A stretch of 64,000 nucleotides of DNA, from NCBI GenBank assembly GCA_964016885.1, contig OZ024745.1, forward strand, positions 62,682,001-62,746,000, given 5' to 3'. The notes beneath the pieces were generated by a model that searched no databases, had not been told where the DNA came from, and saw only the letters and a list, made by a program, of their open reading frames with translations. Of the stretch, positions 4,956-47,178 are shown piece by piece. The DNA is from Eledone cirrhosa. Lineage: Eukaryota. Both the position numbers and the translations under genes were made by a program. The first letter of the stretch is position 1; every line of letters starts with the position of its first letter.

Positions 4956-4956
4956 C

Positions 4957-7825: not shown

Positions 7826-9193
7826 ATAATAATAATAATAATAATAATAAATTTTCATTATATTTATTGATGTTGTAACGCGTGTTTCGCGATTGATCAG
7901 CTCAAGTTTAGATCTGTATCAGTTGGACCCGGCTTAGGAATCAAAATCTCATCGCACTCCTGTTATTGGGACTTTAGAATGATTCCCGTACAGCTCTGTT
8001 TCTCAAAGTTATAAGGGAATTCAATGAAAATACAAGAAGTCCGGATTCCAATATATACCTTTAATGGTCCTCAATTACATAATACTTATTTCTGCAGCAA
8101 GCTTACTTATTTCAGACCATGGCGCAAATGTAATGAACACAATAGATTTAAAAGATTTAATTCAGTAATCCCTACATAACAAAAAAATAAAATGCAAAAA
8201 TTGATAGGGCATTGGCCCGGTCAGAGATACCATCACTACCACGGACGGCCTCAATACCAAAGTAGAGTTTACATGTTCCATTACGGCTAAATCGTTAGTC
8301 TTCTTAATGTGTGTGTGTGCGAGTGTGTTTGTGATTTTGTGTGTGTGCGTTTTTTATGCGATTGTATGTGTATATGTGTTTTTGTATTCGTGCACCATGC
8401 AGGTGTTGATCCCTTCTGATATTGAGATTAAATCGAAGTTCCATACGATACCTTATTACTTAATTTGCTCCAATTAAGATGATTCCAGACCCAAATCTCA
8501 TTATTAGCATTATTTACCTCCTAATTTTGACGATTTCTTTTGTTTTTGTCAGTGCTTTTGTTATCTTAATGTTATTGTTATTGAGAGATTTTTGTTAACT
8601 TCTTATTTTTATAATTAATTCTGTTGATATGGAAGAAATAAAGAAATGATTAATGCACATAATTTAATATTCAATTGAAGTAAGATAAACCACAGACGTT
8701 CTAGTATATTAACTTTGTTCAGCATATTCAATTTCGAACGGGAGCATGAATTATACGTATGTGAATATATGATAAATTACATATAAATATCAGTGTGTGT
8801 GTGTGTATGTAAATGTTACTGTGCTTTCTGCGTGTGCGTCTGTCTAAGTAAGTGTGCGGGTGAGTGTGTGTACCTCTGCAACTGTGTGGGAGGAGGGGGT
8901 GCATACGAATTTGTGCAACTGTGACATGAACTAGATTAAAGCAAATAATATTAAATATGGTAACACTTTAAAGTTGAAAAAATATTAACTATCATAAAAA
9001 AACGATGGTGTGAGACAAAACAAAGGAGAGAGACAAAATAAGAGCAAAAGTAGTTACTGAGCAGGTCACCGAATGTGTGACGAAGAAGCTTTGATGACAA
9101 GCAACATCTAAATAAACATCCGATTGTGAAATTATAACAATAAATTAAAGTGAACCCAATAGGTAATTTTATCTTCCCTTCATGACCCTCACA

Positions 9194-22771: not shown

Positions 22772-22965
22772 ATGGTTTCTTTATTAACCACATTGGACTC
22801 AAATTAAGAGAACATTAAGGATAGGAGAGAATGATACAGAACGACATAGGAAGGTACAGTGTGTTGATTAGAATGTAACAGTTCTGAATAAAATAAAGGT
22901 ATAAAAGAAAACCATGAAAAAGATTCAAAGAAAAATATTCTCCAATAGGGGAAAACGTTTTGAAC
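22772..22965 (-). mobile_element. Diverged Tx1-like 3'-UTR fragment
   Basis: atggtttctttattaaccac matches the 3' termini at 7697 and 40169; caatagggg resembles 28865-28873. The far boundary is uncertain. Confidence 0.5.
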
Positions 22966-23000
22966 GCAACAACCCCTACTTCCCACGTAGCTAAAATCTA

Positions 23001-26000
23001 AACAGCAGCAGCAGCAACAACAACACTAGTAACCGATGCTACTGGCCTTGAAAATCGAAAAAAGTAAAGGAAAAAACAACAATGAAACAAAAAAAAACTA
23101 AGTCAGTCATTCAAACATTACGATGAAACATATGTTTATTTTTTTAAGTTTTCATCCATTTATTTGTTTATTTATTTATGTTCGACTACAGCGTGATGGT
23201 GCCACGCTAAAATCACCGGTGGTTATGTAACCATACATTCACCAATCCTCGATATGAGTGTTTAAATGTCGAACCTAAACAGTTCGAATAACGAAGGCAA
23301 ACGAGCCAGTGGGAAATGAAGGTGAAGAGGTTGAGAGACCTGAGGTAGCATCCGAAGCGGACAAAGATCTAAATGCTGAAATAAATAACATTTGGAACAA
23401 AGATACGGCCATTGAGGAAATTAATGCTGACGGGCTAGGACTAGTGGTAGGACTAGTGGTAGATGAAATGAACAATGATAGTGGGAACCTATTATTAGTA
23501 GACAGGAAAAAGTTAAAAGAAACAACAGCTAAGGTAAAAAATGTCATCCCATACCTTGAGGCGAGGAACCTTCACCAATGCAAAAATATCCTCAAAGCAA
23601 CAGCAAATGGGGTGAGGAAATTACTCGGCATAAAAACGAGAGGAAACAACAAACAAGAAAGATCAGAACATTGGTGGAAGAAACGACTGATTGGTCAAAT
23701 GAAGGAAATGAGAAATTACATTGGAAAGCTTGAATCTCTACTGAATGGACTGGAAATAAAGTACAAAACTAGGAGGAAAAAGCTAAATATCATCATAGAG
23801 TAACTGAAGCAACGCATTGTAGCAAAAAGTGCAAAGATTAGGCGGTATGAGAGCAGGGTCAGTCAGTATAGACATGTTGGACAACAACCAGAAGATGTTG
23901 TTTGGACAGCTTGAAGGGAAAGAAATAGGCAACGACTTGATCCCTGAGGCGGAACAGACTAAGACATTCTGGAGATGAATATGGGAGAAGGATGTTGAAC
24001 ATAATGATCAGGCAGTGTGGATTGAAACAGTACAAAAGGAGATTAGTGAACAAGCACACCAACAAACTGATTTGAGTATCACAGTTGAAACTCTTAAAAG
24101 GCAGGCCAAAAAACTAACCAACTGGAAATCACCAGGCCCAGATGGTGTGCAGGGGAATTGGATTACAAATATAACATCCCTCCACACGAAACTGACAACC
24201 ATGTTCAATGACTGCTTGATGTCGGGTGAGGTACCAGAGTGGTTGACAAAAGGTACCACAGTTCTGGTAATGAAAGACCGAATCAAGGGTAAAGATGTTA
24301 CCAGCTATAGACCTATCACATGTATGTCCGTAATGTGGAAACTGTTAACAAGCATTGCGTCTGAGGAAATCTACCATCACTTCCACATAAACAACTTGTT
24401 ACCGGACGAACAGGAAGGATGCCGAAAGAAGTCCCGTGGTACAAAAGACCAGTTACTTATTGATAAGATGGTAATGAGGAATTGCAAGAGGAGACACACT
24501 TGTCTTGCCATGGGATGGATAGAGTACAAAAAGGCATTTGACATGGTGCCTCATTCTTGGATCACCAAAAGCCTAGATATCTTCAAGGTGGTAGATAATA
24601 TCAGACTGTTGTTGAGCAAAAGTATGAAGTCCTGGAAAACAGAGTTAACATCGGGTGGTGATTCCTTGGGAGGCGTGAAGATCAAAAGAGGTATCTTCCA
24701 GGGAGATAGTTTGTCCCCTTTGTTGTTTGTCCTTGCCCTGATGGCCCTGACCATTATACTACATTATACTACACAAAATGAGAGTAGGATACAAGTTGGG
24801 AAAAGGAGAGCTTACCATCAACCACCTCCTCTTCATGGACGATCTTAAAATCTTTGGGATGTGTGAGAAGGAGTTGGATATGCTTGTTGACACTGTCCGT
24901 ATGTTCAGCAATGATATATGTATGCAATTTGGTATTAATAAGTGTGGAGACCTAGTGATGAAGAGGGGTAAATTGAGCAGAAGCAACGGAATCCAGGTAC
25001 CAACAAGTGAGATGATAATGGAAATTGACCCTGAAGAAGGATACCAATATTTAGGTGTTCTGGAGGCAGATGATATCAAGAACAAAAAAATGAAGGAATC
25101 GATAAGATCTTAGTACATTAGGAGAGTAATGAGCGTATTAAAATCATATCTAAATACTAGGAATATCATAAGTACAGTGAATTCCCGAGCTGTGTCTATT
25201 ATTAGGTACAGTGCGGGAATTCTGTAATGGAATGTTGCTGAACAAAAAGAAATGGATATGAAGACTAGGAAGCTATTGACTATCTACAACAAGCACAAGA
25301 GGAGTGATGTCGATAGATTCTACTAAAGAGATCTGAGGGTGGAAGAGGTCTTATCAGCATAGAGGACTGTGTTCAGTTGGAGAAAAACAACCTGCATAAA
25401 TACGTGACTGACAGTAGGGAGCGAATGCTCAGAATTGTACTGAAGGAGAGGACAATAGACCAGGGGATGTCCAAAGAGGAAATAACAAAAAGGAGGAAGA
25501 GCAACCTTCATGAAAAATACTTTCATAGTACCTTCTTTAAGAAAACTGAATTTAGAGATCCACAGACATGGAACTGATTCAAAAGAGACCTTACAAAGAC
25601 TACAGAAGAAAGCTAATGGCTGCGCAAGAGCAGGCCCGCAGAACGAAGTGGCTGAAACACCATATTTACAAGGAGGAGGAAAGCCTGGAGATATGATGTG
25701 ATGGGCAGGGTGATCCACTGGCACCTATGCAAAGTAAACAATTTACTACATTCTGAGAAGGGATATGAGCATTAGCCAGAGTCGGTGATGGAAAACGATC
25801 AGGTGAAGTTGCTATGGGAATTTAGGATACAGACGGACAAGAAACTGGAACACAATAGACCTGACCTGGTGGTTTTGGACAAGGAAAAAAGATCGTGCCT
25901 GATTGTGGATGTAGCCTGCCCATTCGACACAAGAGTGCAAGAGAAGGAAAGGGAAAAAATTAACCGATCCCAGAATTTAAAGTGGGAGGTAAAAAGGACT

Positions 26001-26217
26001 GTCATAGGTGCACTAGGTACTATCTCAAAGAGTTTCCAAGGATGGTTAAAGATAATTGGTCCCGCCCCGCATTTTGGAACACTTCAAAAAGCACGCTTGC
26101 TGGCAACAGCAAGAACCCTCCGATACGTCCTGAATATCTGAGGCTGCAGGTAGTGGCTTGATATTCATTTAAACAAACTTTCCAGTTAAATAACATCAAT
26201 GACTGAGACTCAAAGAA
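23001..26217 (+). mobile_element. Dong family A copy 4 (5' leader retained, internal deletions)
   Basis: Leader homologous to 1613-1912; ~360-bp deletion near 23292; RT ORF 24015-24848; RLE 25785-26141; TAA tail. Confidence 0.9.
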
Positions 26218-26227
26218 TAATAATAAA

Positions 26228-28678
26228 TCTCATAAATGGAAATATTCTGGTAGAGACAGGGTGCCAAATTTCTGGCTCTCCCCACTCCCGTGCACTCACA
26301 ATATATCGGTCAACCTGTTTAATGGAATTATGAAAGATCCAAAAAATACACCTGATTGGATAGCTATTGACATTACCTACCTTCTACCAAAGAACAACGA
26401 AACCAAAGATCCAAAAAACTATCGGCCATAACCTGCTTGTCCAACACTTATAAACCATTAACCTCTATTCTCATGGAAAAAGCATACGTGTTTTTGGAGG
26501 AGAAAAATCTTTTCCCCATTGAACAAAAAGGGTGCCGAGGAGGTTCATATGTTTGCAAAGATCAACTTTTGATTAATTGTATGATCCTTGAGAACTGTCA
26601 TAATAAACACAGAAATCTCAGTTCTGCATGGATCGATTATGAAAACGCCTTTGACAGCATACCACACTCATGGATTCTGAAATCACTGGACATCTTCAAA
26701 ATCTCACCTGTGATCTCAAACTTCCTGAAACACAATATGTCATTATGGAACACAAATCTCCAATTGTCACATTCGACTGTTGCACTGTGCTCTAGGAATA
26801 TAAACATCAACTGTGGTATATTCCAGGGTGACTCACTTTCACCCTTGCTTTTCTGCATAGCATTAATACCCCTTACATCCGAACTTAATAGAACAGGGTA
26901 CGGTTTTAGAATTGACAACAAAAAAATTAGCCACCTATTTTATACGAATGATTTGAAGCTATATTGCAAAGATAATGACGAACTGGAAGGCCTTTTGCGG
27001 ACAGTAAAAACGTTTAGCGATGACATCAGGATGGAGTTTGGACTTGACAAGTGTGCAAAAGCCACTTTCAAGTGGAGGAAGCTTGTCAACTCAGACTCAG
27101 TTGAAATGGATGCTGAAACAATCATAAAGGAACTTGAGCAGGAACAAACCTATAAATACTTAGGGATTAATGAGGCTGTGGCATACAGCATGCAAGTAGG
27201 AAAGCGAGGATAAGGAAAGAACGTTACAGGAGAGTACGTGCAGTTCTGTGATCAGAACTAAAAGCTCGTAACAAGGTGCTAGCCATAAATTCCTTGGCAG
27301 TTCCAGTCGTCACTTATAGCTTCGGTGTGTTGAACTGGAATATGAGTGAAATCAAAAGAATCGACACCAAATCCGTAAGCTACTGAACTGTAATAGGATG
27401 CACCACCCAAAAGCAGATGTGGATCGTCTTTACCTTCCTAGACCTCAAGGAGGCCGTGGCCTGATCCAATTTGAACTTGCTTACTAGACCACCATCATTG
27501 GACTGGCCAAATACCCTGAAACAACTAACGACTGTATGCTGAAACATGTTGAAAAGCATGAGAGAAGTAAGAAGCTTCATTCTATCTTGAAGGAGTGCAA
27601 CAAATATGCTACTGATCTCATGCTTGATACCCAGGCTGGACAGACTAAAGAAACTGTTGTAACTGATGCTGCTAGGCACATAAAATCACTGGCAAAAGCA
27701 AAAGGGCAATGACAATTAGTATCAAATTGGGAGCAGAAACCTCTGCATGACAAATATGTGGCCCGTAGCAAACAAACTCATGTTGACCAAAAGCACACCC
27801 ATCAGTGGCTGCGTAGTTCAGGGCTAAAGGCGGAGAGTGAAGGCTTCATCTTAGTTGTCCGAGGTCAAAGCTTATTGACTCATAATTACCAGGCCAATGT
27901 GATGAGAAACGGAATAAACCCAAAGTGCCGATTCAGCAATGCTGAGGTTGAAACAGTGGATCATTTAGTCTCTGGATGTAAAGTTTTAGCACCAGTAGAA
28001 TACAAATAAAGACATGACAGAGTTGGCCAATATCTACACTGGGTAATATGTCGGCGTTACAAAATCAAAGCTGAAGACAAGTGGTACAATCATCACCCTG
28101 AGGCTGTAACTGAAGGAGAACAAGTAACAATTCTCCGGGACTTTCCTGTACATACTGACAGGACCATAAAAGCAAATAGACCTGACATCATTGTAAAAGA
28201 TCAACATAACAAGTTCTGTTTATTGATAGATATGAGCATTCCATGTGATCACAATATCGCGGCAAAAGAATTTGACAAGCTACGAATATATAAATCTGCC
28301 TATTGAAATTGAGAAAATGTGGTACCTCAAGGCTGTTACAATACCAGTGATTGTGGGAGGACTGGGAATGATCAAGAAAGGAACAGAACAATATTTGCGA
28401 ATGATTTCTGGTTTACCCTCTCTGCACGAGGGGAAAAAAATTGTTTTGACTGGTACTGCACACGTATTGAGAAGAGCACTATCTCTGTAAGATTTATATC
28501 CCTCCTTGTATTTACATATGCATATGCACATGTGTATATATGTATACTGTGTTTTTTTTTATTATAATCAATGTGCTGTATTAATTGGCTTACCAATGCA
28601 CACTGTGAATTTATTTGCCCTAGGTGTCAGGAAGACACTCGGCATATATCTCAGAAACAATAATGAAAGAAAATAAAA

Positions 28679-28680
<2 letters not shown>
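26228..28680 (+). mobile_element. R4/Dong-clade LINE family B, 5'-truncated
   Basis: CKDQLLIN, GIFQGDSLSP, HLFYTNDLK, YKYLG, ETVDHLVSGC, RPDII, terminal TAHVLRRALSL*. Nucleotide sequence is distinct from family A; (TAA)n tail at 28681-28723. Confidence 0.9.
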
Positions 28681-28724
<44 letters not shown>

Positions 28725-28973
28725 CTTTGTTTATTAATCACAAGGGTCTACATAAAGTAGACATTAGGGACAGTACAGGACAATACAGGGCGGTACAAAT
28801 GGGTATTGCTGCGTGTAAAAAACAAGAAACAAAGGATGTAATAATAGAACAATGAAAAAATTCCACAATAGGGGGGAGACCTTCGATGGACATACGTGGA
28901 GAAAGCCCATTAAAAAGCCACAGTGACCCTGACCACCAGGGCAAGTGCCCTCTCCCAGTTTTCCACCTTTAAT

Positions 28974-31973
28974 TTACAGACACATACTCAGAGTAGGCCC
29001 ATTCACTGGGGCCATTCTTGCCTCTCTCACCTATCTTTCAACAAAATGCTGGGAAGAGAGCACTTCCCTTTCTAGCCTGATTTTCCTTTTTAAATGAAAT
29101 TTGAAAAAGTTAATCAAGGCATCACCGAAGAGGCAAGTGCTCGTATTCAGCCCTTTCAAACGTGTCCACCATACTATCTCTTTCGCCATGGCCACTAGAC
29201 AGATAAAAACTGCCTGCCCTTCCCGGCTAAAGGAGGAGGACGGGGCAATCCTCACGATGGACTCAGCTGATAGCTGGATCCGTCCTACACGCGACAGCAG
29301 GTGTTCGACATAAACCCACAAGTCAGCAATGGTCGCACATTGGACGAGTGCGGGCAGGACGGTTTCGTCGCCCTGCGCGCATCTCGGACATGCCCGGCTG
29401 ACGGCACCTCCATGCCTGTAGAGTTTATCCCGAACTGGCAAAGCTCCTCGGTAGCACCGCCAGGCCAGGGATTTCTGGAAGTTGTCCATAGGCTCCGACC
29501 CGAAATTCTTCCGAAGAGATTGGCTAGTTGATTTTCGTCGACGCCTAGAGTTTCCCCAAGTACGTCGTCGCTCTTCCCCTCCACTAATCCTCTATAGAAC
29601 GCCAAGGTGGAGTTTCCACCGATAACATTGCCCGATTGGTCGAGGGCTGTGAGCGCCTGAAGACATTCCAGTCTCCAAGCGATCCCCCTCGGCCTTCGCT
29701 TGACCCAGGACTGCAGCTCCGTCAAGGAGACGAGCTGGGGAAAGACGCGTCTAGCAAACGAGACCACACCTCATCCCGTCTAGGAAGAGGTGGAGATGTC
29801 GTAGCCTGAGCGCGTGTCTGCGCATCATCAGCCACGGCATACCCAGCCCTCCACGTAGCGGGTGTTGACAGCAGATGGACCGCCTGACCATCGGAGCGCG
29901 TCGCTTCCACAAAAAGCGAAAGATCAAACGCTCCAGCGCAGTCAGGCGGGGCTTAGGACAAGGTACGACGGTCAGGCGGTAGTAGATGACGGACGCGATG
30001 TACGCGTTATCCACCTCCGCTCGACCTTTCAGGGATAGCTTCTCGGCCCATTTCTGGGTGAGAGAAGCCACCTTGTCCCAGTTTTTCTCCGTCTGGTGAT
30101 CCGGACCGAACCAAGCCCCGAGCAATTTAACTGGTCCGTCCGTCCAGCGCTCGACGACGCTGTTGGATGGCATGGACCTGCCTCTCCAGGTGCCGAGCTG
30201 CAGGCCCACTGACTTTTCCTGGTTGATCATTGCTCCTGTCACCGCTTCGTATTCTCTTCGTGTAGTGCCGATCGCCTCGATGTGTTTGGCGTTCGACACC
30301 ACTACGGTGACATCGTCCGCATAGGCTGACACGGATCTTCCGCATCCTAGTTCGCGCCGGACCCCCTCAACGTCTCCAGTTTGTGCAGTAATCGCTCGAG
30401 AGTCAATACGTACAAGAGGGACGAGAATGGATATCCTTGGTGGGCCGAGCGCATGATGTTGAACGGTTCCGAAAGGTGACCGTTCACTCTCACCACAGAG
30501 CAGATGTCGCTGTGCATGGCAGTGATCCAGGCTCTGAAGACGGGCCCAAATCCAGCCGCCCTCAGGACTGCCGCCAGGTAATGATGGTCGACCCTATCGA
30601 AAGCTTTCGACTGATATAAATTGATCAAGGACCCACCCGTGCCAGGTTCCCTAGCTACCCTCTCTACGATGTATCGCATGAGGTGGAGGTTGTCGTGGAT
30701 GGATCTGTCGGGAATGGCGCATGTCTGCGCCTCTCCCACCAGACCACCAACGACAAGCGCCAACCTCTTTGCTAGCACCTTGGCCAAAATGTTGAACACT
30801 GTGTTTAGCAGAGTTATGGGCCCGTCGTGGTCCACCGAAGACCGGATCGTGGCTTTGTTGCCACGACGTGCCTCCGCCACTCGAGCCCATTGAACGGCTT
30901 TCGTCCCCTCGTGTCTGAGAGCACGCACCCTAGCTCTGACACGCAGCCTTCGTGCTTTGCATTGAAGAATTGGTCAAGGGCCAATTTCGCCGCAAGTACA
31001 TCGGTCGCGATGCCTTTGCTAAGCGCCTCGTCTAATTTTCTAACTAATTCTCCCTCTGCTCTATTTTTCTCTATTGCTAAAGCTTTACTAAACCTAATGG
31101 ACTCTATTCTAATTGCTCTTTTCAGAGCAAACCACCACTTGTTGTTGACGATGGCCCTCGTCAACGCCCGCTTAACTAGTTCGCTAATCCGGTCTCTGTA
31201 GGCCTTGCACGCTGGTAAGGACGCGTTTAGCTTCCAGTAGCCGGGTCCTCGTCTATGAAGCCTATCTAAGTCAAGCACACAGATCACGAATGTGTGGTCC
31301 GTGTAGCTGACTATCTTGAATTGTGGACAGCCTATGCTAGACCTATCTATTTCTCTACTAAATACTCTATCTAGATATGATCTGGATGACCCTATGCGAT
31401 TTGTCCAAGTCCACATTGGCACATTCGGGAAATCCAATAGGTACCTGTCAGACAGTTAAAACGCCTAAGCAGGTTGGTGAGGCTCTTGCACCCTCCTCTC
31501 CTATCCGCTAATCCCACACAGTCCCAGCGTGCATCTAAGATCCCGTTCCAGTCTCCCACTAACACTAAAGAGCGGGACGTTCCAAGAAAGGTCTCCAGAC
31601 GCCGGACGAAATCAGGCCACCCTGCTCCTGTCGGGGCATAGACGGCCACTAGCCTGAAAGCTTGCCCGTCTCCGCTGGTCACGTCTAGCACCACCAACTT
31701 ACCTTCTGGGTCCAGGAAGATGGCCCGTATGGCGAGATCCAAACCTCTCCGAAAAAGCACAGCAATTACTCCACCCGATCCTGGACGGCTGGGAGATGCG
31801 TACACATCGTAGCCGCCGAAGATCGGTGCGAAGGCCCGTGCTTCGGAGATTCTGGTCTCGCTGATGGCCACCACATCTATGTTTAGTGACCTGAGGTCGT
31901 TGAGCAGGTGGCCCTGCTTCCATGATGACCCCAAGCCACGCGCATTTGTGCTGCCCATTCTGAGTGATGTCAT
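28974..31973 (-). pseudogene. Tx1-like ORF2: APE endonuclease, RT and zf-RVT
   Basis: STNARGL, AISET, VYAP, GDWN, SYLDR, YTDH, YWKLN, KAFDRVDH, AYADD, CPRC..ETV; frameshifts and a deletion near 30830. Confidence 0.88.
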
Positions 31974-32012
31974 GTTGAAATGGAATGGAAAAGATGGGAA
32001 AGACCACTTACC

Positions 32013-33963
32013 TTACTTCTCGTAGAGGAAGAATGGTTTCTCCATCCTTTTCACTGCTTGTGGCCTCCTCTGGAAGGATGTTCTTATAAATCCTCCGATG
32101 TCTTTGGGGAATTTTTGTTTTAGAGTCGTGTACGTTTTCTGTGTGATGCGGGTGATTTGTATGTGTGGAGGTGGTGTGAAATGTTGGGTTGTTGTGTAGT
32201 CTTTTTCTGTGAAGCTGGTGTTGTGTTGCATGTAGTGTAATAATTGGTTGTTGTTCAAATTTAATGCTGTATAGTGTGTATCGTTTTGGTTGTTTTGTTT
32301 TGTTTGAATTTGTTGTGGGTTTGTTTCTGTTACGCTTTTTGGTGACTTTTGTGGTGTTGGTGATGGTGGTGTTGCGGTTAATGATGGTGTTAGTGTTTGT
32401 GGTGATGAGGTTGGTGATGCTGGTGTGGATGGTGGCATATCTGTCCTAACTTTTTTGTTTGATAGTTTATTTGTTTCCCTCTGTATTTTGTTTCTGGATG
32501 GGGATGGAAGAGAATTTTTTCTTTTTTGGTTTCTTTTTTTCTTTTTTCCTGATACCGTTTCCCACTCCTCGTCGTCACAATCTGTCTCCAGTTGTGATAG
32601 GCCGGGGAGTGGAAAATCCTCCACATGCGTTGGTTTTGGTTGTGGCGTGGTTGATGGTGTAGGCGCTGGTGCTAGTTCTGGCGCGTTGGGTGGTTGTGGT
32701 GTTGGTTTTGCTACTGTTGCTGGGGTTGTTGCTGTTACAGTCGCTTCTGTTGTTGCTGCTACAGTTGTTGCTGCCATCTCTGATTCTGGTTGTGTTGATG
32801 GTTGAGTCACTGGGGTGGGTAAGAGAGGTGGCCTTAAGTTTTTAGCCTGAAGGCAGAACGCCCTTAGGTGGGTTCCTTCACCACAAACGACACACCTAGG
32901 TCTTCTGCCCTCGACGATTACGGTGAGGTGGCTGCCGTCAGTGAGGTCTATTACCTCTGGGATCTCCTCAATGCTTTTATGGTCCGCTTGGATCAGGAGC
33001 TCCATCCCAGATCCGGACCAGTTCTCCTGCTTTTCTTTCGCTATTTCAATTATCTTGGTGTTGGCCTCGATGTCGGCGAGGAGGGCAGCCATTAGTCAGG
33101 GAATTTCGATGGCCGGTGGAACGTGGGTCACCCTGATCTTCACAAGTCTCTGGCTGGCCACAATAGCTTGGGACGAGTGTGAAGTCGTCACTTCTTAATG
33201 GGGCCATGAAGTGTTCTCTGGCCTCCTGTGGTGTTTCAAAGAACACGTCCACGTTTCCACACTTCTGCCCACGTCTGATGTGGGGTTTTTTGCCCACACA
33301 TGTCCCAAAGTTTTTTGGATTTGGGACACGGATGCCCGTTCCACTCGGCGCGATTTTATGTTAATTGTCCGATGAGACACGGTGCATAGGCGACGTTGCT
33401 CCATTTTATTAGGTGTGGGGCGGGGCGCGGGGGGGGGGGGGGGGGGGGCTAACCCTGTACCCATCTTTCTTTACCATTCTTTAGGCTTCTTCTAATTCCT
33501 CCTGAGTTACCTGGATCGCTTCGCACGTTTTTGCTACTCTGGCAAAACTCAGGGTAGTTTTCTTAATTTCATTGTTGCTGTTGTTGTTATCGTTATTTTT
33601 GCTATTGTTAATTTTAGTTTCAGTTGTGGTGGTGGTGGTGGCGTCAGTGGTGTTCGGTGTGGAAGAGTTAATTTTGGTTGAATTCATTTCGATATCACGA
33701 GTTAATTTATTTTTTTCTTTTGTTTCTGTTGTCGCTGTGGTGGTGGTGGGGGTGGTGGTTGTCGCGGTGGTGGTGGTGGTGGTGGTGGCGGCTTTAACAC
33801 CTGCAGTCATTGGTAATGGCGGGAAATGAACGTCTGTCTGAGACAAATTTAAAATATTGCTACTGCTTACATTTCCAGTGTTGGCAAACGTAGCAATATT
33901 TACAATGGTGGTGTCGGTGTGAGGTGTTAGCTTGTGAGGAAGGAGTGACTCTGAGACAGCCAT
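32013..33963 (-). pseudogene. Tx1-like ORF1 (gag-like CCHC knuckle)
   Basis: Thr-rich N-terminus, SFARVAK motif, CVVCGEGTHLRAFC knuckle, Pro/Thr-rich tail, EEWETVSGKKKKR; split by frameshifts. Confidence 0.78.
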
Positions 33964-34190
33964 GATTTTTCAAAGAAAAATTTTTGTTTGATAAGGCCCA
34001 AATATATTTGAGTGTCCTTTTCAAAAATCAATGTATGTGCACTTATATGTAGTTAACAATAAAATCTTTCCATAAATGGCTATTTTAAACAACTGAAAAT
34101 AACAAACCTTTGCGGAGCTCACGATAATACGATTTACTACGTAGGTCGCCAATAATAATAATGATAATAATAATAATAATAATAATAATA

Positions 34191-37147: not shown

Positions 37148-37190
37148 AATAATAATAATAATAATAATAATGTTCTCTTTAATAATAATA

Positions 37191-37805
37191 ATATGGAAAA
37201 TACCCAGAAAGAGCTAACAATCCTGATGTTGATAAAACTTTAACCCATCAGTGGATGGCATCCTCTGGACTGAAATCGGAGACTGAAGGACTGATTATAT
37301 CAGCAAAAGAACAGTGTCTGCCAACAACAAATTACCAAGCCAACATAATAAAAAATGGATGCAACCCATTATGCCATGTATGTAAAAATCAACCAGAGAA
37401 CATTGATCATATAATTTCAATGTGCAGCCCTATAGCTCCAACCGAATATCTAAATAAGCATGACAGAGCTGCACAATACATACATTGGATAATGTATAAG
37501 CATTTTGAACTGCCTCATCAAAAGAATTGGTGGGAGCATCAACCACCTCCCATAGTTGAAAAATATCACATCTCAATCTTGTGGAACTTTAGCATCCAAA
37601 CAGACCGAAAAATGGATGCAAATAGACGTGATATAATACTGAAGGACTTTAAAAAGAGGGTATGCCTGGTAATTGATATGTCCGTTCCAATAGATAAGAA
37701 TGTATCTATAAAAACATTTGAAAAATTGAGCAAGTATAAGGACCTGGAGATAGAAATTGGAAAAATGTGGTAATTGAGAGCTAAAGCAATACCAGTTGTT
37801 GTTAG
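37191..37805 (+). mobile_element. Dong family C 3' segment (duplicate of 39241-39856, lacking the 3' UTR)
   Basis: GLKSETEGLII..CHVC..ENIDHIISMC..LVIDMSVP..KYKDLEIEI; colinear with the downstream copy. Confidence 0.88.
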
Positions 37806-40136
37806 AAAAACCAGCACACAGAAATCCCCAGGAAAAGACAAAATACCAAATTTTTTGATAAATGCCTTCACATAGTCTCATTAGCTGTTAGCCCGACTTT
37901 ACAATGAAATGGTTAAGGAGCCAGAAAAGACACCACCATGGCTAGTTAACGGCATTACATTCCTACTTCCGAAGAATGATGAGACAAACAATCCCTAAAA
38001 TTACAGAGCGATAACTTGCATGACCACAATGTATACAATTTTAACATCAGTTCCAACTGAATATACATATGATCACCTGATAACAAATGATCTATTTCCC
38101 AATGAGCAGAAAGGGAGTAAACGAGGCTCATATAGCTGTAAAGATCAGCTTTTGGTTAACAAAATGATACTGGAAGATTGTCATTATAGACACAAAAATC
38201 TATCAATTGCTTGGATAGAATACAAAAAAGCATTCGGTAGTTTGTCACACAGTTGGATTGAAAAATGTTTAGAGATTTTCAAAATATCTTCTGTTGTCAG
38301 CAGGTTCCTGTCATTCAGTATGAAGACATGGAAAACGACACTCCTTTTGAATAGTGAAAAAGAAATCACTGGAAGCTGGAGAAATTAGTATTAATTGTGA
38401 AATTTTTCAGGGTGACTCTTTATCGCATTTATACCATTAAGTAAAATGCTCAATGAAACAAAACATGGATATAAAGTCTATGACAAAACAATTAATCACT
38501 TGTTCTACACGGATGACCTGAAACTATTTGCAAAAAATGAAGCAGTTCAGTGATGACATTAAAATGGAGTTTGGACTAGATAAATGAGCCAAAGCAACGT
38601 TCACCAGAGGAAAGCTGCTGAAAAGTTCAGACATTAATCTTGATCGGGGGAATGTAAGAACACTTGATCAAGAAGAAACTTACAAATATCTAGGTGTTTG
38701 TAAAGGAGACGGAATCAAGTACTTGACTATGAGGGAAAGGATAAGGAAGGAATGTTACCGCAGAGTAAGAGATATCTTAAGAACGGAATTGAATGCCCTA
38801 AACATGCTTACCATACCAGTAGTAACCTACAGTTACAATGTCATCAACTGGTCAAGCACAGAGATCCGCAGGCTCGATACAAAAATTAGAAAATTCTTAA
38901 CCATGCACAGAATGTATCACCCTAAGGCAGATACAGATAGAATATATCTCCCTAGGAAAGAAGGAGGACGTGGGTCAATCCAGTTAGAGAAAACTGCAAC
39001 AATTGGATTATCTACATATCTAAGGGAATCACATGATTGGATGTTCAAACTCGTTTTGAAACACATCAAAAGATCATACTCCATTACAAAAGATGAACAA
39101 AGATACAGTAATGGACTACAAATCTCAGAAGTTCCATTTACTGCTGAAATGAAAAACACAGAAAAAGCAAAGCAGGTAAAAGTAACTGCAAAGAAAGAAC
39201 TGCTACAGAAACTGGCTAAGAAATGGCAAGAAAAGCCTCTATATGGAAAATACCCAGAAAGAGCTAACAATCCTGATGTTGTCAAAACTGTAACCCATCA
39301 GTTGTTGGCATCCTCTGAACTGAAATCGGAGACTGAAGGACTGATTATATCAGCACAAGATCAGTGTCTGCCAACAAAAAATTACAAAGCCAACATAATA
39401 AAAAATGGATGCAAGCCATTTTGCCGTGTATGTAAAAAATAACCAGAGACCATTGATCATAACATTTCAATGTGCAGTCCTATAGCTCCAACCGAATACC
39501 TAAACATGCATGACAGAGCTGCACAATGCATACATTGGATAATGTGTAAGCATTTTGACCTTCCCCATCAAAAGAATTGGTGGGAGCATCAACCACCTCC
39601 CATAGTAGAAAAAGATCACATCTCAATCTTGTGGAACTTTAGCATCCAAACAGACTGAAAAATAGATGCAAATAGACGTGATATAATACTGTAGGACTTT
39701 AAAATGAGGGTATGCCTGGTAATTGATATGTCCGTTCCAATGGACAAAGAATATATTTAATAAAACATAAAAAAAAATTGAGCAAGTATAAGGACCTGGA
39801 GATAGAAATTGGAAAAATGTGGAAATTGAGAACTAAAACAATACCAGTGGTTGTAGGCGCTCTACGAATGATACCTAAGGGGTCTAATGATTACTTATCG
39901 CAAATCCCAGGCAACCCGCGTATAGGAGAAATACAAAAGATAGTACTAATGGGAACTGCCCATATACTCAGGAAGATTCTGTCAATATAAGTACATCATA
40001 AGTCTAAACACCTAAAGATGCATGTGTGTGTATGTATGTTCTTTCTTGAGCATGGCGGACCTTGTTGTCTCCTGAGGTCACTGGTTGTGACTTGGTGATA
40101 ACTTGTATGAACATAAAGCAAGATAAATGCAACTGC
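37806..40136 (+). mobile_element. R4/Dong-clade LINE family C, 5'-truncated
   Basis: KSPGKDKIPNF, CKDQLLVN, FQGDSL, HLFYTDDLK, YKYLG, terminal GTAHILRKILSI*; TAA tail. Confidence 0.9.
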
Positions 40137-40438
40137 AATAATAATAATAATAAATAAATAATAATAATGGTTTCTTTATTGGCCACAAGGGCTAACATGA
40201 AGAAAAATATTAGAGACGGCACAGAACAGTACAGGACAATACAAAGTGGGTTTTGGTCGTGTTAACAGGTTTTAACAAGATAGAAATCGGGCTAGAAATC
40301 AAACAAATTCAAAACAACAAAAATTCCCCAAAAAGGGGGAAATCTCCGAGGGTCACTCGTGGCGAAAACCACACAAAAGACCACGGCCACCCTTACCACC
40401 AGGGCAAGCACCCTCTATCAGTTTTCCCACTTCTCAGT

Positions 40439-43400
40439 CTAAAGGCGCATACTCAAAGCGGGCCCCTTCACTCGGACCAGACTCGCCACTTTCACCCACC
40501 TTTCAACAAACTTACTAGAAGACAGCACTTGCCTCTCCACCCTGATTTTCCTCTTCAAGTGAAACTTGAAAAAGTTAATCAGGGATTGGCCGGAGAGGAA
40601 AGTATCTGTCTTCAACCCTTTCAACCTTGTCCACCACACAATCTCTTTCGCCATGGCCACCAGGCAGATGAAAACTGCCTGCCATTCCTCCTCTTTAAAG
40701 GAGGATGGCGGAGCTATCTGCACAATGGAGCCAGTCGATAACCAGATCCGTTCTACACGCGAGAGCAGCTGTTCGACATAGCTCCACAAGTCAGCAATTC
40801 TCAAGCACTGAACGAGTGCGTGCAGGACGGTTTCGTCTCCCTGCACGCATCTCGGACAGGCTCGACTGAGAGCACCTCCGTGCCTGTAGAGCTTATCTCG
40901 AACCGGCAACGCTTCCCGGTAGCATTGCCAGGCCTTGTATTTCTGGAAGTTGTCCATAGGCCCCGGACTGAAGGTTCTCTTGAAGAGAGCGAACAGCTGA
41001 TCGTCATCGACGCCCAGGGTTTCCCCGAGAACATCATCGTACTTTCCCTCCACTAGCCCTCTATAGAACGCAGAGGTGGATGTTCTACCGATACTAGTGC
41101 CAAGCTGGTAGAGGGCAGTGAGCGCTTGGACATATTCCAGTTTCAAGGCGCTATCCCTCGGTCTTTTCTTGAGCCAGGACTGCAGCTCCGTGAAGGAGAC
41201 GAGCTGGGGAAAAGCGCGTCTGGCAAACGGTGACCACACCTGTTCACTGTCAAGCGCGTCTGGCAAACGGTGACCACACCTGTTCACTGTCAAGGAAGCA
41301 CCCGAGATGTCTCAGCCTCAGCGCATGTTTGTACATCATCAGCCACGGCATGCCTAGTCCTCCACACAACGGGTGTTGACAGCAAATGGATCGTCTGACC
41401 ATGGGAGCACGTCCTTTCCACAAAAAGCGGAAGAGAAGGCGCTCCATTTTGGTCAGAGTTGGGCGGAAGCAACGTACGACGGTCAGGCCGTAGCAGATGT
41501 ACACATTCGCCACCTCCGCCCGACCTTTCAGAGACAGCCTCCTCTCGGCCCATTTCGGGGTGAGAGAGGCCACCCTGCTCGTCATCTCGCTCCAGTTTTT
41601 CTCCATATAGATGTCCGGACCGAACCAGACCCCTAGCAATTTAAACGGTCCTTATGTCTAGCGCCCCACGACGCTGTCGGACGGCATGGACTTGCCTCTC
41701 CAGGTGCCGAGTTGCAAGCCCACCGACTTTTCCTTGTTTATCTTTGCTCCTGTCACCGCTTCGTATTCCTTGAGAGCGATGCCGAGGATCTAGACGTGTT
41801 TGGTGCTCGACACCACCACGGTAACGTCGTCGGCGTAAGCTGACACGGATCTCCAGCATCCCAGTTCGCGTGGGATCCCCCTCATCGTCTCCAATTTGTG
41901 CAGTAACAGCTCGAGGGCCAGTATGTACAAGAGGGACGAGAGGTGGCAACCCTGCCGGACCGAGCGCGTGATGCTGGAAGGCTGTGACAGGTGACCATTC
42001 ACCCTCATAATCGAGCAGATGTCGCTCTGCATCGCAGCAATCCAGCCGCTAAAAACGGGCCTGAAGCCGGCCACCTCGAGGACCGCAGCCAGGTACCGAT
42101 GGTCGACCCTATCAAATGCTTTAGATTGATCCAATTGATCAGGCCCCCACACGTGCCATATTCCTTAACCACCTTCTTTATGATGTATCGCACGAGATGG
42201 AGGTTGTCGTGGATGGATCTATCCGGAATGACGCATGTCTGCGCCTCTCCCACCAGATCAGCGACGACAAACGCTGATCTCTTTGCTAACACCTTGGCCA
42301 AAACTTAAACTCTGCGTTTAGCAGAGTTATGGGCCTGAAGTTGTCTATAACGTCCCCCTTGTTTGGGTATTTTCTCAGCAGCTCCACCGCTCCCCGGCTC
42401 ACAAAACTGGGAATGCTCCCGTTCTGCTGCCAGTTGCAGCAGACATATGCCAAAATGTCGCCGAACAAGTCTGTCATATACGCATAAAGCTCGTAGGGCA
42501 GACCATCCAAATGTTGAAATGCCGCACACATATGCTCGGGTTTGAGCAACATGCGCCCGTTTTGATCAGGCAAAGACCGAATTGTGGACTTATTGCCCCG
42601 TCGCGCCACCACCACCCGGGCCCATTGAACGGCTTTCGTCCCCTCGTGTCTTAGAGCACGCGATCTAGCTCTGACCACGCAGCCTTCATGCTTTGCGTTG
42701 AAGAATTGGTCGAGTGCCAATCTCACCGTAAGCACGTCGGTTGCGATGCCTGTCCTAAACGCCTCTTCTAGCTTTCTAACTAACTCTCCCTCTTCTCTAT
42801 TTTCCTCTATCACTACTCATTTGCTAAGCCTTATCGATTCTACTCTAATAGCCCTTTTCCGGGTAAACAACCCCCTGTTGTTGACGATCGCACCCGTCAA
42901 CGCACGCTTAACTAATTCGCTAATCCGGTCTCTGTAAGCTATGCGTACCGGGAATGATGCGTCCAGCTTCCAGTAACCGGGCCCTTGACTATGGAGTCTA
43001 TCTAAGTCAACATCACGGATCATCAAATTTGTGGTTCGTGTAGTCGACTGCTTTAAATTGTGGACAACCTACGCTAGCGTTATCTGTTTCCCTACAGAAT
43101 ACCCTATCTAAATACGATCTGGATGACCCGATGCGGTTTGCCAATGTCCATATTGGCACATTCCGATAATCCAGTCTATACCTGTCAGAGAGTTCAAAAC
43201 GTCTGAGAAGATTGTTGATGCTTTTAGACCCTCCTGCCCTGTCTACTAGCCCCACATAATCCCAGCGGGCTTCTAAGATACCGTTCTAGTTGCCCACTAA
43301 CACTAAAGAGCGGGACGTTCTAAGAAAGGTCTCTAGATGTCAGAAGAAATCTGACCGTACTGCCCCTGTTGTGGCGTACACGGCTACTAGCCTGAAAGCA

Positions 43401-43708
43401 TTGACTTCACTGCCGGTCATATCCAGCACCACCGACTTACCTTCTGGGTGCAGGAAGATGGCCCGTATGGCGAGATCCAACCCTCTCCGAAAAAGCACAG
43501 AATCTCCTTCCCCCATCCTCGACGACTGGGAGATGCGTATACATCGTAGCCGCCGAAGATCGGTGTGAAGGCTCGTGCTTCGAAACGTCTGGTCTCGCTG
43601 ATGGCCATCACATCTATGTTTAGTGTGAGATAGTTAAGCAGGTGGCCCTGCTTCCAAAGATGACCCCAGTCCACGTACATTTATACTGCCTATTCTAAGT
43701 AAGGCCAT
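40439..43708 (-). pseudogene. Tx1-like ORF2 (APE, RT, zf-RVT)
   Basis: MALLRIGSINV, AISET, SYLDR, NFRPITLLN, KAFDRVDH, RQGC, AYADD, CPRC..ETVLHALVQC. A 40-bp tandem duplication at 41212-41291 shifts the frame. Confidence 0.88.
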
Positions 43709-43749
43709 GTTTGGTGAGGAATGGAGTAAGTGAGAAAGGATCACCTACC

Positions 43750-45764
43750 ATGATTGTGTGGGAAAGGGACAGTTGAATCGTCCCTTTGGCTGGTGACGGG
43801 TGTTTCCAAGATGATGTCGGTGTATATCTTCTGGGGAACCGACCCTCTGAAGTCTCCAACTGCGTAGGGGAATTTTTCTTTTAGAAGTTTATAATGTTCT
43901 ATTTTGATTTCAATAATCTTTCAATTTTTTGGGACAGTTCTTGGTGTTGGTGGGGTGTAGTAATGTTTGTCTGTGATATTTGTGTGCTGCTTTATATGTT
44001 GTAAGAGTTCTTTATTGGCCATGTTTATGGATGTGTACTTTTTTTTGGAGGGGGGGGGAGTGGTGGTTTTGTTGCTGTTTTCTTGTTGTTGCTGTTGGGT
44101 GTGTGTGCTTTGTTTGTTATGTTTGCGATGTTGGTGTTTTTTGGTGTTGCTGGTGGTGGTGTTGTTGTTGGTGGTGATGCTTGTGGTGGCGATGGTGATG
44201 GTGGTCGTTTTGCTGCAAGTCTCCTTGCAGCCTTTATCCATCTTTGTTTGCCTTTGCTTTTAGAGGGTGAAGCTAAGGGTTTTTTTCTTTTTTTTTTTTT
44301 TTTGTTGCAGACCGTTTGCCACTTCCCTCCCACCTCACACACCATGTCGGATTCCGTGGCGTCAGGGAGGGGTATGAGCTACACTGCTGTTGGTGGTGGT
44401 AGTGGAGCCCGCTTCGGCAATTTTGCCGTCTGTGTAGCTACTGCGACTGTTGGTGTTGCCGCCACTACTGCCGCTGTTTTATTTGTCCGTGGCCATGGTA
44501 TGGGTGCAACAGACGTTGCTCTCCTACTCACTATGGAAGGGTCTTCTGCCTCTGTTGCCTGTCCTGCTCTTGGTAGCAGCGGATCAAGCGTCGGAAGGAG
44601 GGGGGCCCTCTTCTTGGCTGTCTTCCACGGGCAGAAGACCCTGAGGTGACCCTTATGCCCACAGAGATAGCACTTTGGGCGCATTACTTCCACGCTTATA
44701 GTCAGTTGGAATCCTTCCTCGAGGTCTATGATATCTGGGATGGCCTCGATGCACTCCTGGTCAGTTTGTATTAGCATTTGCATGCCTATTACTGGCCAGT
44801 TCTCACTTCCCGTTCTCTGTATTTGCAGTATGGTGGTCCTGTCCTCGATTTCAGCAATTACAGACGCGGCCAGCCAAGGCATGGCCACAACGGGCGTGAC
44901 TTGGGTCACTTTGACCCTCTCAATTTTCTACTCGCAGTAGGAGGGCACCAAGACTATCTCCACACTCTTTGGGTTTCCAAAGTGTGAGACTTTGCCTCTT
45001 GGTGGGTGGGGGTGATAAGTACGTCTACAATGGCGGACTTTTTTCCTCGGGTGATGTTTGTTTTGCGCGCCCAGACGCACCCCAATGCCTTTTGATTTGA
45101 GCCTCTATGGCTCACTCCACCCGATGTGACATATTGCTTACGGTGCGGTAAGTCACCGTCCGCAGCTGCTCGTCTTTGAAGAAATCGGGTGGGGGTTTCA
45201 GGGAAACTCTATTGTCATTTCTTGTCACCATGGCTCTTGCGACTGCCATCTCCTCCTCCGTGACTAGCACTGTCTCTATATTTCGGGCGACACCTGCGAA
45301 AGAAGTGGCCCCTTTTTCAGCCGTACCATTATTGCTGCTGCTACGGCTGCTACTGGTCTTTTTGTTGGTGCTGTTGTTGTTGCTACTGCTACAAACGGTG
45401 TTGTTGGTGTTGTTGCTGTCATGACTGTTGTAGTTGGTTGTGTTTTTGGTGCTACCTTTGTTGTTGTTTTCGGTGCAATTTGCATTGTTGCTGTTGATAT
45501 TGTCATTGTTTATTTTCTTGTTCGTGGTGTTAATATCGTTGTTGTATTTGTTGTCATTTTTTATGTTGTCTGTATTTTGGTTGTCGCTGTTATTGTTGTA
45601 GTTGGTGTGGTAATTTTTTAAAAATTAGTGTTCTCGGTGTTGTTGTCTTTGTTCACGTTGGTTGTGGTGGTGTTTGTTGTATCAATTTCTGCAACCCTCC
45701 TCTCAACTTTTACGCGGTTGTCACACGGCAGCAGACATATAGCTGGGGGGCGTGACTCAGCCAT
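43750..45764 (-). pseudogene. Tx1-like ORF1
   Basis: ATGGCTG start as in family 1, Thr-rich N-terminus, CYLCGHKGHLRVFC knuckle, WQTV..KKKK motif; multiple frameshifts. The 3' end is approximate. Confidence 0.75.
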
Positions 45765-47178
45765 GTTTTTTTATTTTATTTTTAAATGTAAAATGTTCAA
45801 ATATTTGGGCCCAAAAGCCCAAATATTATACTTTCCCTTTCACAGGGCAAAGAAAAATTTGACAACACATAATTATAACAGGTAAATAAAGCGACTTACT
45901 GGGAGCGAGCAAAACGACGTCCGAACAGACCAATAATAATAATAATAATAATAAAAATCTTGATAATAATAATAAAAAAGAAGACGGATGGGGAAGGGGA
46001 AAATGTAGAATATAAAGATATAGGAGAAAAATATTAATAATAAAAAGAAGAGATGGTGGAGGAGGCAAAGAAGCAAAAAAGTACAAAGAAGAAAAAAATA
46101 ATAGAGGCGTACAACAACTGCATATTGTTAATAACATAAAGTTTAAAATCAATAGGAATAAATGTTCTCTATTTTTTTGTAATATAAAAATACATTTAAA
46201 TATTAACAGTTCTTAATGCTGACCTCCGTGTGCATTATGGTCATTATACTCTGATATTTTTTTATAGAATTCCATAGCCCCATAGTCTTAAACTTATATA
46301 AGAAAAATATATCCTAAATTTATATCTATCTATCCCCTTCTTATTTTGAGCAAACATCGACATATAGGAAGAATTGTATTATGAAGTAATTGAAAAGACT
46401 TTTGGAAAGAAACGTGTGAAGATCTTCAAGAACTTTAGCAAATAAATAAAATCAGCCAAGAACATTATATAATAATTATGTTTATGTATTAAAAAATAAA
46501 TAAATGGAAAGAAAAACCTAAATATATGTTGGAAACTTGCGTTCCACTAACTACAGGATGGAATATTGCGCAACGGGAAGAATTCAATAAAATGTCATTT
46601 TCGAAAGATCTACATGAATGTTTGTAGGAATGTGAAGAGAAATCACAATGTGGTATTAAATCTTTGAAGATAATGTCGAACAAGCTTCACAATCCGAATG
46701 AATTGAATGGGCAATAGGTGACAGTATTGTTCAGAACTTCAGATATCCTGAGGAAAAATTTCTGTCTGAATCATGCAGACTTGATGGAAAATAATTTTAT
46801 TTTCATTCTCCATTATTATGGACGAGTACAGTCAATACAGATGATAATTACAAATATTAACAATAATAACAACAATAATAACAATATTGATAACAACATA
46901 ACAAACGTTATCGTAATTGTCAATTACGATATAAAAATAATAATAATTATAACAGTAAATTTTAATAAGTTTTATTAGATGAGTAAGTAATATGGGGTAT
47001 GTTTAGAGCCATTGTTAGTTTCATCTTTTGAGATAAAAACAAAACAACAGGAAAGATAAAATATTATTCAATGAAGATGACAGGAAAATATAGTATTTAA
47101 TTGTATAACATTTGCAGTGATTTGCTTCTCTTTACGCATGATTACATTTATTTTTAAATAGGTGTATGTATGCTTATA

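What the first reader, a model, noticed from the sequence alone, without database searches (positions are those of the whole stretch)
22772..45975. 23-kb retroelement train on TAA tracts with strict clade-specific polarity
Seen: DongA(+), DongB(+), Tx1-1(-), DongA(+), DongC(+) twice, Tx1-2(-), joined almost entirely by (TAA)n spacers with no unique DNA and no nesting inside ORFs. Across both arrays all 8 Dong segments are +, and all 4 clear Tx1 segments are -. Inference: two unrelated endonucleases (RLE and APE) converge on one microsatellite but prime from opposite strands. Each insertion regenerates target for both, giving a self-extending safe-harbour array. Facing 3' ends could yield mutual antisense readthrough, as in a piRNA-cluster-like trap.
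Basis: partly seen in the sequence, partly recalled or inferred. Interest (0 to 1): 0.75.

Follow-up and report, generated by a model that had tools for sequence, protein, structure and literature searches.

The report
Retrotransposons share TAA repeats, facing opposite
Two unrelated kinds of jumping gene, plus a very common short element that likely borrows the enzymes of one of them, sit in the same TAA/ATT repeat facing opposite ways across this genome (likely an octopus relative's); this 23-kb chain is one of many, likely grown because insertions leave target repeat on both sides, with no sign that it is a defence locus.

Summary
Confirmed, with corrections. Window 22774-45931 holds five Dong/R4-like LINE segments (+) and three Tx1-like segments (-), all broken; 5 of 7 junctions carry a TAA tract.

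Polarity is a genome-wide rule relative to the repeat strand. Tx1-1 5' ends follow an ATT-strand tract 2,382 times and a TAA-strand tract 0 times. Outside the window, 5' ends at pure tracts were Dong 102:0, Tx1 99:0 and SINE 51:0.

Tx1 and the SINE duplicate roughly 6-22 bp of target starting at ATT, so target survives on both sides. The SINE shares Tx1's strand, duplication signature and a 3' hairpin. No duplication was found for Dong.

Such trains occur in 3 of 80 evenly spaced 10-kb windows, so this one is not special, and nothing supports a piRNA trap. Dong/TAA, microsatellite-specific Tx1 and opposite-strand pairs (TRAS/SART) are published. An ATT-specific Tx1-like lineage antiparallel to Dong was not found in my searches. 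The scan noted this pattern before on other pieces of this genome. Verdict: new variant of a known kind; interest 0.42.

The parts
22774..22956 (-). Old Tx1-like 3' stub, ending in a degenerate 4-unit tract (22762-22773)
   Evidence: 71% identity to a Tx1 3' end elsewhere in the genome; sequence
23050..26217 (+). DongA copy (R4/Dong-like: RT, CCHC, RLE), 5'-truncated in the UTR, with internal deletions; no tract at its 5' junction
   Evidence: RVT_1; BLAST and tblastn to an intact 1126-aa DongA ORF; nearest relative among fetched loci 90.8%
26218..26227 (+). Short TAA spacer, about 3 units
26228..28678 (+). DongB copy, from the RT start to the 3' end; 31-46% amino-acid identity to DongA
   Evidence: RVT_1; tblastn; 1,879 first-look candidates in the genome
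28679..28723 (+). (TAA)15 tract shared by the DongB 3' end and the Tx1-1 3' end
28724..34150 (-). Tx1-1 with both ends present: ORF1 (CCHC motif) and ORF2 (APE, RT, zf-RVT), broken, with internal deletions
   Evidence: Pfam Exo_endo_phos, RVT_1, zf-RVT; 5' end defined by 29 other copies
34151..34190 (+). (TAA)13 tract between the Tx1-1 5' end and the DongA 5' truncation point
34191..37147 (+). DongA copy, 5'-truncated; 88% identical to the first DongA of the array
37148..37193 (+). Interrupted TAA tract (7 + 4 units)
37194..37802 (+). DongC piece lacking its last ~280 bp and tract; joined to the next DongC by a short microhomology
   Evidence: 92% identical to 39241-39854; junction sequence
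37803..40136 (+). DongC copy, from the RT start to the 3' end; 33-40% amino-acid identity to DongA
40137..40169 (+). Imperfect TAA tract, about 11 units
40170..45931 (-). Tx1-2 with both ends present, broken; 76-81% DNA identity to Tx1-1
45932..45975 (+). Interrupted TAA tract at the Tx1-2 5' end; right edge of the array
946..7850 (.). Second array of the same kind: (TAA)19, DongA 1003-4957 with its 5' end, DongA 5000-5431, DongA 5495-7600 (all +), Tx1-1 stub 7697-7826 (-)
4217..4274 (+). SINE fragment inside the DongA ORF, at the internal ATT site also hit by a SINE in L188
15078..15268 (+). Reference copy of the ~190-bp SINE that follows the Tx1 strand rule

Best explanation
The array is a pile of dead non-LTR retrotransposons that lie in (TAA/ATT)n repeats with a fixed orientation per clade (Dong-like reading TAA, Tx1-like and the SINE reading ATT), likely because each clade starts target-primed reverse transcription on its own strand of the repeat. 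Shown: Tx1 and the SINE are followed directly by ATT and often flanked by a duplication of about 6-22 bp that begins with ATT. Inferred: the first nick falls after AAT on the TAA strand, made by the Tx1 APE endonuclease and possibly steadied by a short AUU overhang on the RNA; Dong nicks the TTA strand with its RLE. Because the duplication keeps repeat on both sides of each Tx1 or SINE insertion, each event likely adds a landing site for all three families, so trains grow by successive insertion over millions of years. 5' junction formation likely sometimes erases the tract and part of the neighbour. The SINE is likely mobilised by the Tx1-like proteins. No host function is needed to explain the layout.
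For: Tx1-1 5' end after an ATT-strand tract 2,382 times versus 0 after a TAA-strand tract; all 100 listed matches end in register on ATT. 5' ends at 420 pure tracts outside the window: Dong 102:0, Tx1 99:0, SINE 51:0; 8 exceptions among all 573 ends, all at 3'-side ends. Full-length DongA 5' ends: 22 TAA, 5 none, 0 ATT. Tx1 duplications of 14-21 bp in 7 of about 15 copies whose 5' end lay in the locus, plus L033 and L236. SINE: duplication of 10 bp or more in 18 of 32 full-length copies from evenly spaced windows versus 8 of 300 mismatched controls; 28 of 32 are followed by ATTA against a 0.7% background. Seven SINEs nested in known LINEs show 6-22 bp duplications and no added tail; three of them hit one site in Tx1 ORF1 with different lengths. 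In L033 a SINE re-used the duplicated site left by a Tx1. A CUUGU-loop hairpin ends Tx1-1, Tx1-2 and the SINE with different but pairing stems. APE catalytic motifs align to the L1 endonuclease; the Dong C-terminal motif aligns to the R2 RLE. Segments differ in age, 90.8-96.6% to their nearest fetched relative. Tract-less junctions: 6 of 13 Dong5'-Tx1 5' joints versus 0 of 11 joints of two intact 3' ends. EN swapping moves specificity between TRAS1 and SART1 (PMC7265360, passages).
Against: No cleavage or insertion was assayed. No target duplication could be shown for Dong. Truncated 5' ends are less often at a tract: Tx1 13 of 47, Dong 65 of 103 in anchored loci, though many misses are gaps in my library. 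Three truncated Tx1 copies followed out to their 5' ends showed no duplication (L363, L366, L370). The SINE is much less tract-bound than Tx1 (7 of 51 full-length random copies have a tract upstream). The hairpin comparison rests on three lineages, the Tx1-1 class was defined on the right arm of the stem, and the window's own SINE copy did not fold it (z +0.47). Other octopod LINEs were not tested as SINE partners. Tx1 3'-end counts include 30 loci picked by a pattern requiring ATTATT.
Confidence: 0.8

Rival explanations
1. Strand choice is set mainly by RNA-primer pairing: transcripts run into the downstream repeat, so Tx1 RNA ends in AUU units and Dong RNA in UAA units, and each can only prime on the complementary nicked strand even if the endonuclease nicks both.
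For: Tx1 3' ends carry no poly(A) and join straight to ATT. In two copies (L215, L364) the downstream side has a few more ATT letters than the upstream duplicate. Both strands of the repeat offer a TpA step. Annealing of target-like RNA is proposed for SART1 and R1Bm (PMC7265360, passages).
Against: Most nested SINEs and short Tx1 copies show no extra tail beyond the duplication. Sister Tx1-like lineages end in other repeats, which fits endonuclease-set targets but does not exclude this model. It is compatible with the best explanation as a second layer.
Confidence: 0.3
2. The tracts are only element-made tails, and the chains are passive pile-ups kept by weak selection in an AT-rich region.
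For: 3' ends nearly always have the repeat; 41 of 63 pure tracts in evenly spaced windows have no recognised neighbour.
Against: Tracts abut 5' ends in fixed register 2,382:0; duplications show the ATT letters belong to the target.
Confidence: 0.07
3. The array is a host-selected, piRNA-cluster-like trap in which facing 3' ends give antisense RNA.
For: Convergent Dong/Tx1 3' ends exist at 28679-28723 and 40137-40169.
Against: Trains occur in 3 of 80 evenly spaced 10-kb windows. Convergent pairs (42) and divergent pairs (35) are about equal in end-anchored samples. Tx1 has an AATAAA signal just before its 3' end. Target rules alone give the layout.
Confidence: 0.06
4. The array is a misassembly joined at TAA repeats.
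For: Junction tracts are simple repeats; a 200-N gap lies 3 kb to the left.
Against: Tracts are at most about 45 bp, there is no gap inside the array, every copy is unique (3-9% from its nearest fetched relative), and the same junction types recur at hundreds of loci.
Confidence: 0.03

Closest known systems
Dong (R4 clade; Bombyx mori Dong, DongAg, snail DongBg, ostracod Dong)
   Same: Single ORF with RT, CCHC and RLE; (TAA)n target in insects, molluscs and cnidarians (PMC3812793, PMC7998251, passages). The B. mori 5'-junction primer reads TAA repeats then element (PMC3774820, passage), the same strand as here.
   Different: Three families only 31-46% alike share the target here, at thousands of dispersed sites, alongside an APE element on the other strand.
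Microsatellite-specific Tx1-clade elements: Kibi (TC)n, Koshi (TTC)n, crocodilian (TTCC)n/(TTTC)n families
   Same: Two ORFs, APE + RT, microsatellite target (PMC4494074, passages).
   Different: Target is (ATT)n. I found no ATT/TAA-specific Tx1 in print; Repbase, Kojima and Fujiwara 2004 and the supplements of PMC4494074 could not be seen. Clade placement was not tested by a tree with named references.
TRAS1 and SART1 in (TTAGG)n of Bombyx mori
   Same: Two LINE families enter one short repeat in opposite directions; the endonuclease sets the site (PMC7265360, passages).
   Different: Those are telomeric and structurally similar to each other (both R1-clade APE elements; clade label recalled). 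Here the pair is RLE versus APE, in a dispersed trinucleotide repeat.
RLE/APE convergence on one target: Utopia and Keno in U2 snRNA genes; R2 and R1 in 28S rDNA
   Same: Unrelated endonucleases on one repeated target (Utopia: PMC4640811 abstract and passages; Keno: PMC4494074 passage; R1/R2 recalled).
   Different: Those targets are genes with fixed sites; here the site is a microsatellite that Tx1 and SINE insertions duplicate.
SINEU mobilised by Tx1-Mar (crocodilians)
   Same: SINE-Tx1 partnership inferred from shared target preference (PMC4494074, passages).
   Different: Here the link also includes a shared 3' hairpin and a matching duplication signature; the SINE's head type was not identified.

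Membership tests
R4/Dong clade | Single ORF with non-LTR RT | tested here: met
   Intact 1126-aa genomic DongA ORF, RVT_1 E 2.8e-23; best solved relatives are R2 proteins
R4/Dong clade | C-terminal CCHC and restriction-like endonuclease | tested here: met
   CCHC visible in the ORF; residues 1015-1089 align to the R2 RLE motif, weak on its own (E 0.04)
R4/Dong clade | N-terminal Myb/SANT-like domain without zinc fingers (PMC7998251) | tested here: inconclusive
   No N-terminal zinc finger seen by eye or Pfam; no Myb hit in Pfam; a profile-profile test was not run
R4/Dong clade | (TAA)n target read on the element's sense strand | tested here: met
   5' ends 102:0; full-length 22 TAA, 5 none, 0 ATT
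R4/Dong clade | RT phylogeny with named Dong/R4 references | not testable with these tools
   The 120 listed homologues carried no clade names
Tx1 clade (L1 group) | ORF2 with N-terminal APE, RT and C-terminal zinc finger | tested here: met
   Pfam; closest solved relative is L1 ORF2p, E 2e-43; APE motifs align
Tx1 clade (L1 group) | Upstream ORF1 with a CCHC knuckle | tested here: met
   CCHC motif seen by eye in a 711-aa ORF1 of a related copy; no Pfam hit
Tx1 clade (L1 group) | Target-sequence preference with short target duplications | tested here: met
Tx1 clade (L1 group) | RT phylogeny separating Tx1 from L1 proper | not testable with these tools
   Named hits were only hypothetical or generic RT proteins of Argonauta and Acanthosepion; 'Tx1-like' rests on architecture, targeting and lack of poly(A)
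SINE partnered with the Tx1-like LINE | Shared 3' tail or structure | tested here: inconclusive
   Shared CUUGU loop and GAAAC end with pairing stems in three lineages; short, and not folded in the one SINE copy tried
SINE partnered with the Tx1-like LINE | Same insertion signature | tested here: met
   ATT-initial duplications of similar length and the same strand rule
SINE partnered with the Tx1-like LINE | tRNA- or other Pol III-derived head | tested here: inconclusive
   Rfam gave only chance matches at flanking simple repeats
piRNA cluster | Dense, uniquely mapping germline piRNAs | not testable with these tools

The most novel reading that the evidence does not exclude
One ATT-cutting Tx1-like lineage drives both its own thousands of copies and a SINE of several hundred thousand copies in octopods. 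By duplicating its target it keeps making landing sites for Dong on the other strand, so three families together build microsatellite-linked trains covering several percent of the genome. Sister lineages that end in (ATCT)n or (CTAA)n would form a natural series for reading how an APE endonuclease changes repeat specificity.
Probability: 0.5. Interest if true: 0.6.

Novelty: new variant of a known kind. Interest (0 to 1): 0.42.

Why it matters
It names a likely insertion rule and a likely partner LINE for an abundant SINE in a group where SINE and LINE expansions are described but, in the papers I saw, not their targets (PMC8967140 passages; PMC13282606 parts 1-2 of 3). The families cover at least about 6% of an 800-kb even sample (Tx1-like 2.9%, SINE 1.9%, Dong 1.1%). 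An RLE and an APE enzyme acting on opposite strands of one three-letter repeat, with sister lineages on other repeats, is a clean system for testing whether the nick or the RNA tail sets strand choice. The single array has no special standing.

Tried and rejected
Read support: no RNA holder was listed. Contigs of public runs were short and could not confirm or break the array. One 74-nt contig matched 26201-26274 exactly in two runs of one sample but has under 31 letters left of the junction, so it is not counted; nothing covered 37772-37819.

One search used the SINE reference in antisense, so its SINE rows are inverted; replace it. In one search, 14 mixed TAA/TTA tracts were set aside before counting, and the loci of the window and its two neighbours were left out.

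Dong target duplications were looked for in 27 copies with short or imperfect 3' tracts and none was convincing. No LINE nested in another LINE with both host halves joined was found. Of 8 stretches fetched to reach Tx1 5' ends, one gave a ~26-bp near-duplication, three had none, and four were uninformative.

Folding of the first ~110 nt of Tx1-1, Tx1-2 and DongA showed no stable 5' structure (z +0.8 to +1.1); pseudoknotted ribozymes were not tested. Homologue, cluster and Atlas look-ups gave no clade labels. The original Dong paper (PMC309301) is not held, and the supplements of PMC4494074, which may list more Tx1 targets, were unreadable. A whole-genome pattern count was made for Tx1-1 only; Dong polarity rests on sampled loci.

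Full report
SETTING. The window is G000:C5:62682001-62746000 in a 3.0-Gb animal genome. The nearest named relatives of its Tx1-like protein are from Argonauta hians (71% identity) and Acanthosepion pharaonis, so an octopod host is likely (inference).

OBSERVATION. Self-BLAST, Pfam and comparison with fuller genomic copies confirm the train: a Tx1-like stub (-), DongA, DongB (+), Tx1-1 (-), DongA, a DongC piece, DongC (+), Tx1-2 (-). Element DNA is 22,905 of 23,204 bp. Five of seven junctions carry TAA; the stub/DongA and DongC/DongC junctions do not. All copies are broken. The two DongA copies are 88% alike, and the segments are 90.8-96.6% identical to their nearest fetched relatives. That fits successive insertion, not tandem duplication. 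The left array (946-7850) follows the same rule but has a SINE fragment inside a Dong ORF.

IDENTITY. An intact DongA frame of 1126 aa elsewhere in the genome has RT, CCHC and a C-terminal stretch that aligns with the R2 restriction-like endonuclease. DongB and DongC are 31-46% identical to it. The minus-strand elements have an ORF1 with a CCHC motif and an ORF2 with APE, RT and zf-RVT; their closest solved relative is L1 ORF2p, and the APE motifs align. No named references were available for a tree, so 'Dong-like' and 'Tx1-like' rest on architecture and target.

POLARITY IS GENOME-WIDE. 3' tails could be self-made, so 5' ends are the test. The Tx1-1 5' motif follows an ATT-strand tract 2,382 times and a TAA-strand tract 0 times; all 100 listed matches end in register on ATT. 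In fetched loci outside the window, 420 pure tracts were scored and 14 mixed ones set aside. With TAA on top, 5' ends were Dong 102 plus and 0 minus, Tx1 99 minus and 0 plus, SINE 51 minus and 0 plus. 3'-side ends were 122:3, 132:2 and 59:3; the Tx1 3' count includes 30 loci chosen by an ATT-containing pattern. Truncated 5' ends are less tidy: Tx1 13 of 47 and Dong 65 of 103 were at a tract, partly through gaps in my library.

MECHANISM: SHOWN. Seven SINEs nested in known LINE sequence have 6-22-bp duplications and no added tail; six begin with ATT on the SINE strand and one with GTT, and three hit one site in Tx1 ORF1 with different lengths. Among 32 full-length SINEs from evenly spaced windows, 18 have a duplication of 10 bp or more (control 8 of 300), and 28 are followed by ATTA. 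Short Tx1 copies show 14-21-bp duplications starting at ATT in 7 of about 15 cases. In L033 a SINE re-used the site a Tx1 had duplicated. Three longer truncated Tx1 copies had no duplication, and none was shown for Dong. Tract-less joints sit at 5' ends: 6 of 13 Dong5'-Tx1 5' joints against 0 of 11 joints of intact 3' ends.

MECHANISM: INFERRED. By the standard target-primed model (established knowledge), Tx1 and the SINE prime at a nick after AAT on the TAA strand and Dong on the TTA strand. Whether the endonuclease or a short repeat overhang on the RNA picks the strand is open; two copies hint at an extra ATT unit on the 3' side. Duplication leaves repeat on both sides, so trains can grow. 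A LINE lies across the tract in 136 of 305 tracts that have a LINE on one side, against LINEs at 19 of 126 tract ends in evenly spaced windows. The SINE ends in a CUUGU-loop hairpin like Tx1-1 and Tx1-2, with different but pairing stems. With the shared strand and duplication signature this makes Tx1 its likely partner, though the hairpin is short and one SINE copy did not fold it.

NOT A SPECIAL LOCUS. Multi-LINE trains appear in 3 of 80 evenly spaced 10-kb windows (L108, L115, L157), which extrapolates to the order of ten thousand. Convergent and divergent Dong/Tx1 pairs are 42 and 35 in end-anchored samples. The 10 kb on either side of the window hold only SINE hits from these families. Nothing here supports a piRNA trap; small-RNA data would be needed to test it.

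COMPARISON. Dong targets (TAA)n in insects, molluscs and cnidarians (PMC3812793, PMC7998251, passages), on the same strand as here (PMC3774820, passage). Tx1-clade Kibi, Koshi and crocodilian families target TC, TTC and TTCC/TTTC repeats, and a SINE-Tx1 partnership is known for SINEU (PMC4494074, passages). TRAS1 and SART1 enter one repeat in opposite directions (PMC7265360, passages; lead from an earlier scan note). RLE and APE elements share U2 genes (PMC4640811, PMC4494074, passages). Octopus repeat surveys list Dong-R4 and L1-Tx1 as abundant; the parts I saw give no targets (PMC8967140 passages; PMC13282606 parts 1-2 of 3). Searches found no ATT-specific Tx1 and no Dong/Tx1 antiparallel arrays; Repbase, subscription papers and some supplements were not visible.

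EARLIER SCAN NOTES. The same pattern was noted on many other pieces of this genome. I used those notes as leads only. The sister-lineage lead was partly confirmed: diverged Tx1-like copies end in (ATCT)n in L148 and L163 and in (CTAA)n in L132 (3' ends only).

VERDICT. A real, well-supported genome-wide insertion rule. It combines known habits in a new way, with a new target for a Tx1-like lineage and a likely SINE partner. New variant of a known kind; interest 0.42.

Noticed in passing
window 55674-56378 (-): Open frame of 234 aa with a bHLH domain (Pfam HLH E 7e-19), about 9.7 kb right of the array; a likely host transcription-factor exon. Resemblance to Mist1/dimmed is recalled, not tested.
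   Followed up: no
window 9240-10651 (+): RT followed by a GIY-YIG-like motif in the next frame; likely a Penelope-like element, not at a TAA tract.
   Followed up: partly
window 20460-21012 (+): Old Tx1-like ORF2 fragment, about 67% identical to the array families, with no tract at its ends.
   Followed up: partly
window 19443-19642: Assembly gap of 200 N, 3 kb left of the array.
   Followed up: no
L148, L163, L132 (3' ends of diverged Tx1-like copies): Sister lineages end in (ATCT)n (two copies each in L148 and L163) or (CTAA)n (L132) instead of (ATT)n.
   Followed up: partly
L217, L218, L243; window 4217 and L188: Recurrent SINE hot spots inside the LINEs: three insertions at one site in Tx1 ORF1 and two at one ATT site in the Dong ORF, where the SINE lies on Dong's own strand because that strand reads ATT there.
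   Followed up: partly
L231, L232, L233, L234: DongA frames of 1022-1126 aa without stops; L231 is 98.6% identical to the copy in L250, so DongA was active recently.
   Followed up: partly
G000:C1:441098534-441134911: Six Tx1 3'-end matches, most spaced about 6.07 kb apart, suggesting a tandem amplification of a Tx1 unit; L108 also shows a ~3.1-kb duplication of a Dong train.
   Followed up: no
window 22530-22745 (-): A second SINE-like family with a related 3' end lies just left of the array.
   Followed up: no
L011, L157, L255: Inverted pieces of Tx1 or Dong next to same-family copies, as expected from 5' inversion or later rearrangement; L157 and L255 account for two polarity exceptions.
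   Followed up: no
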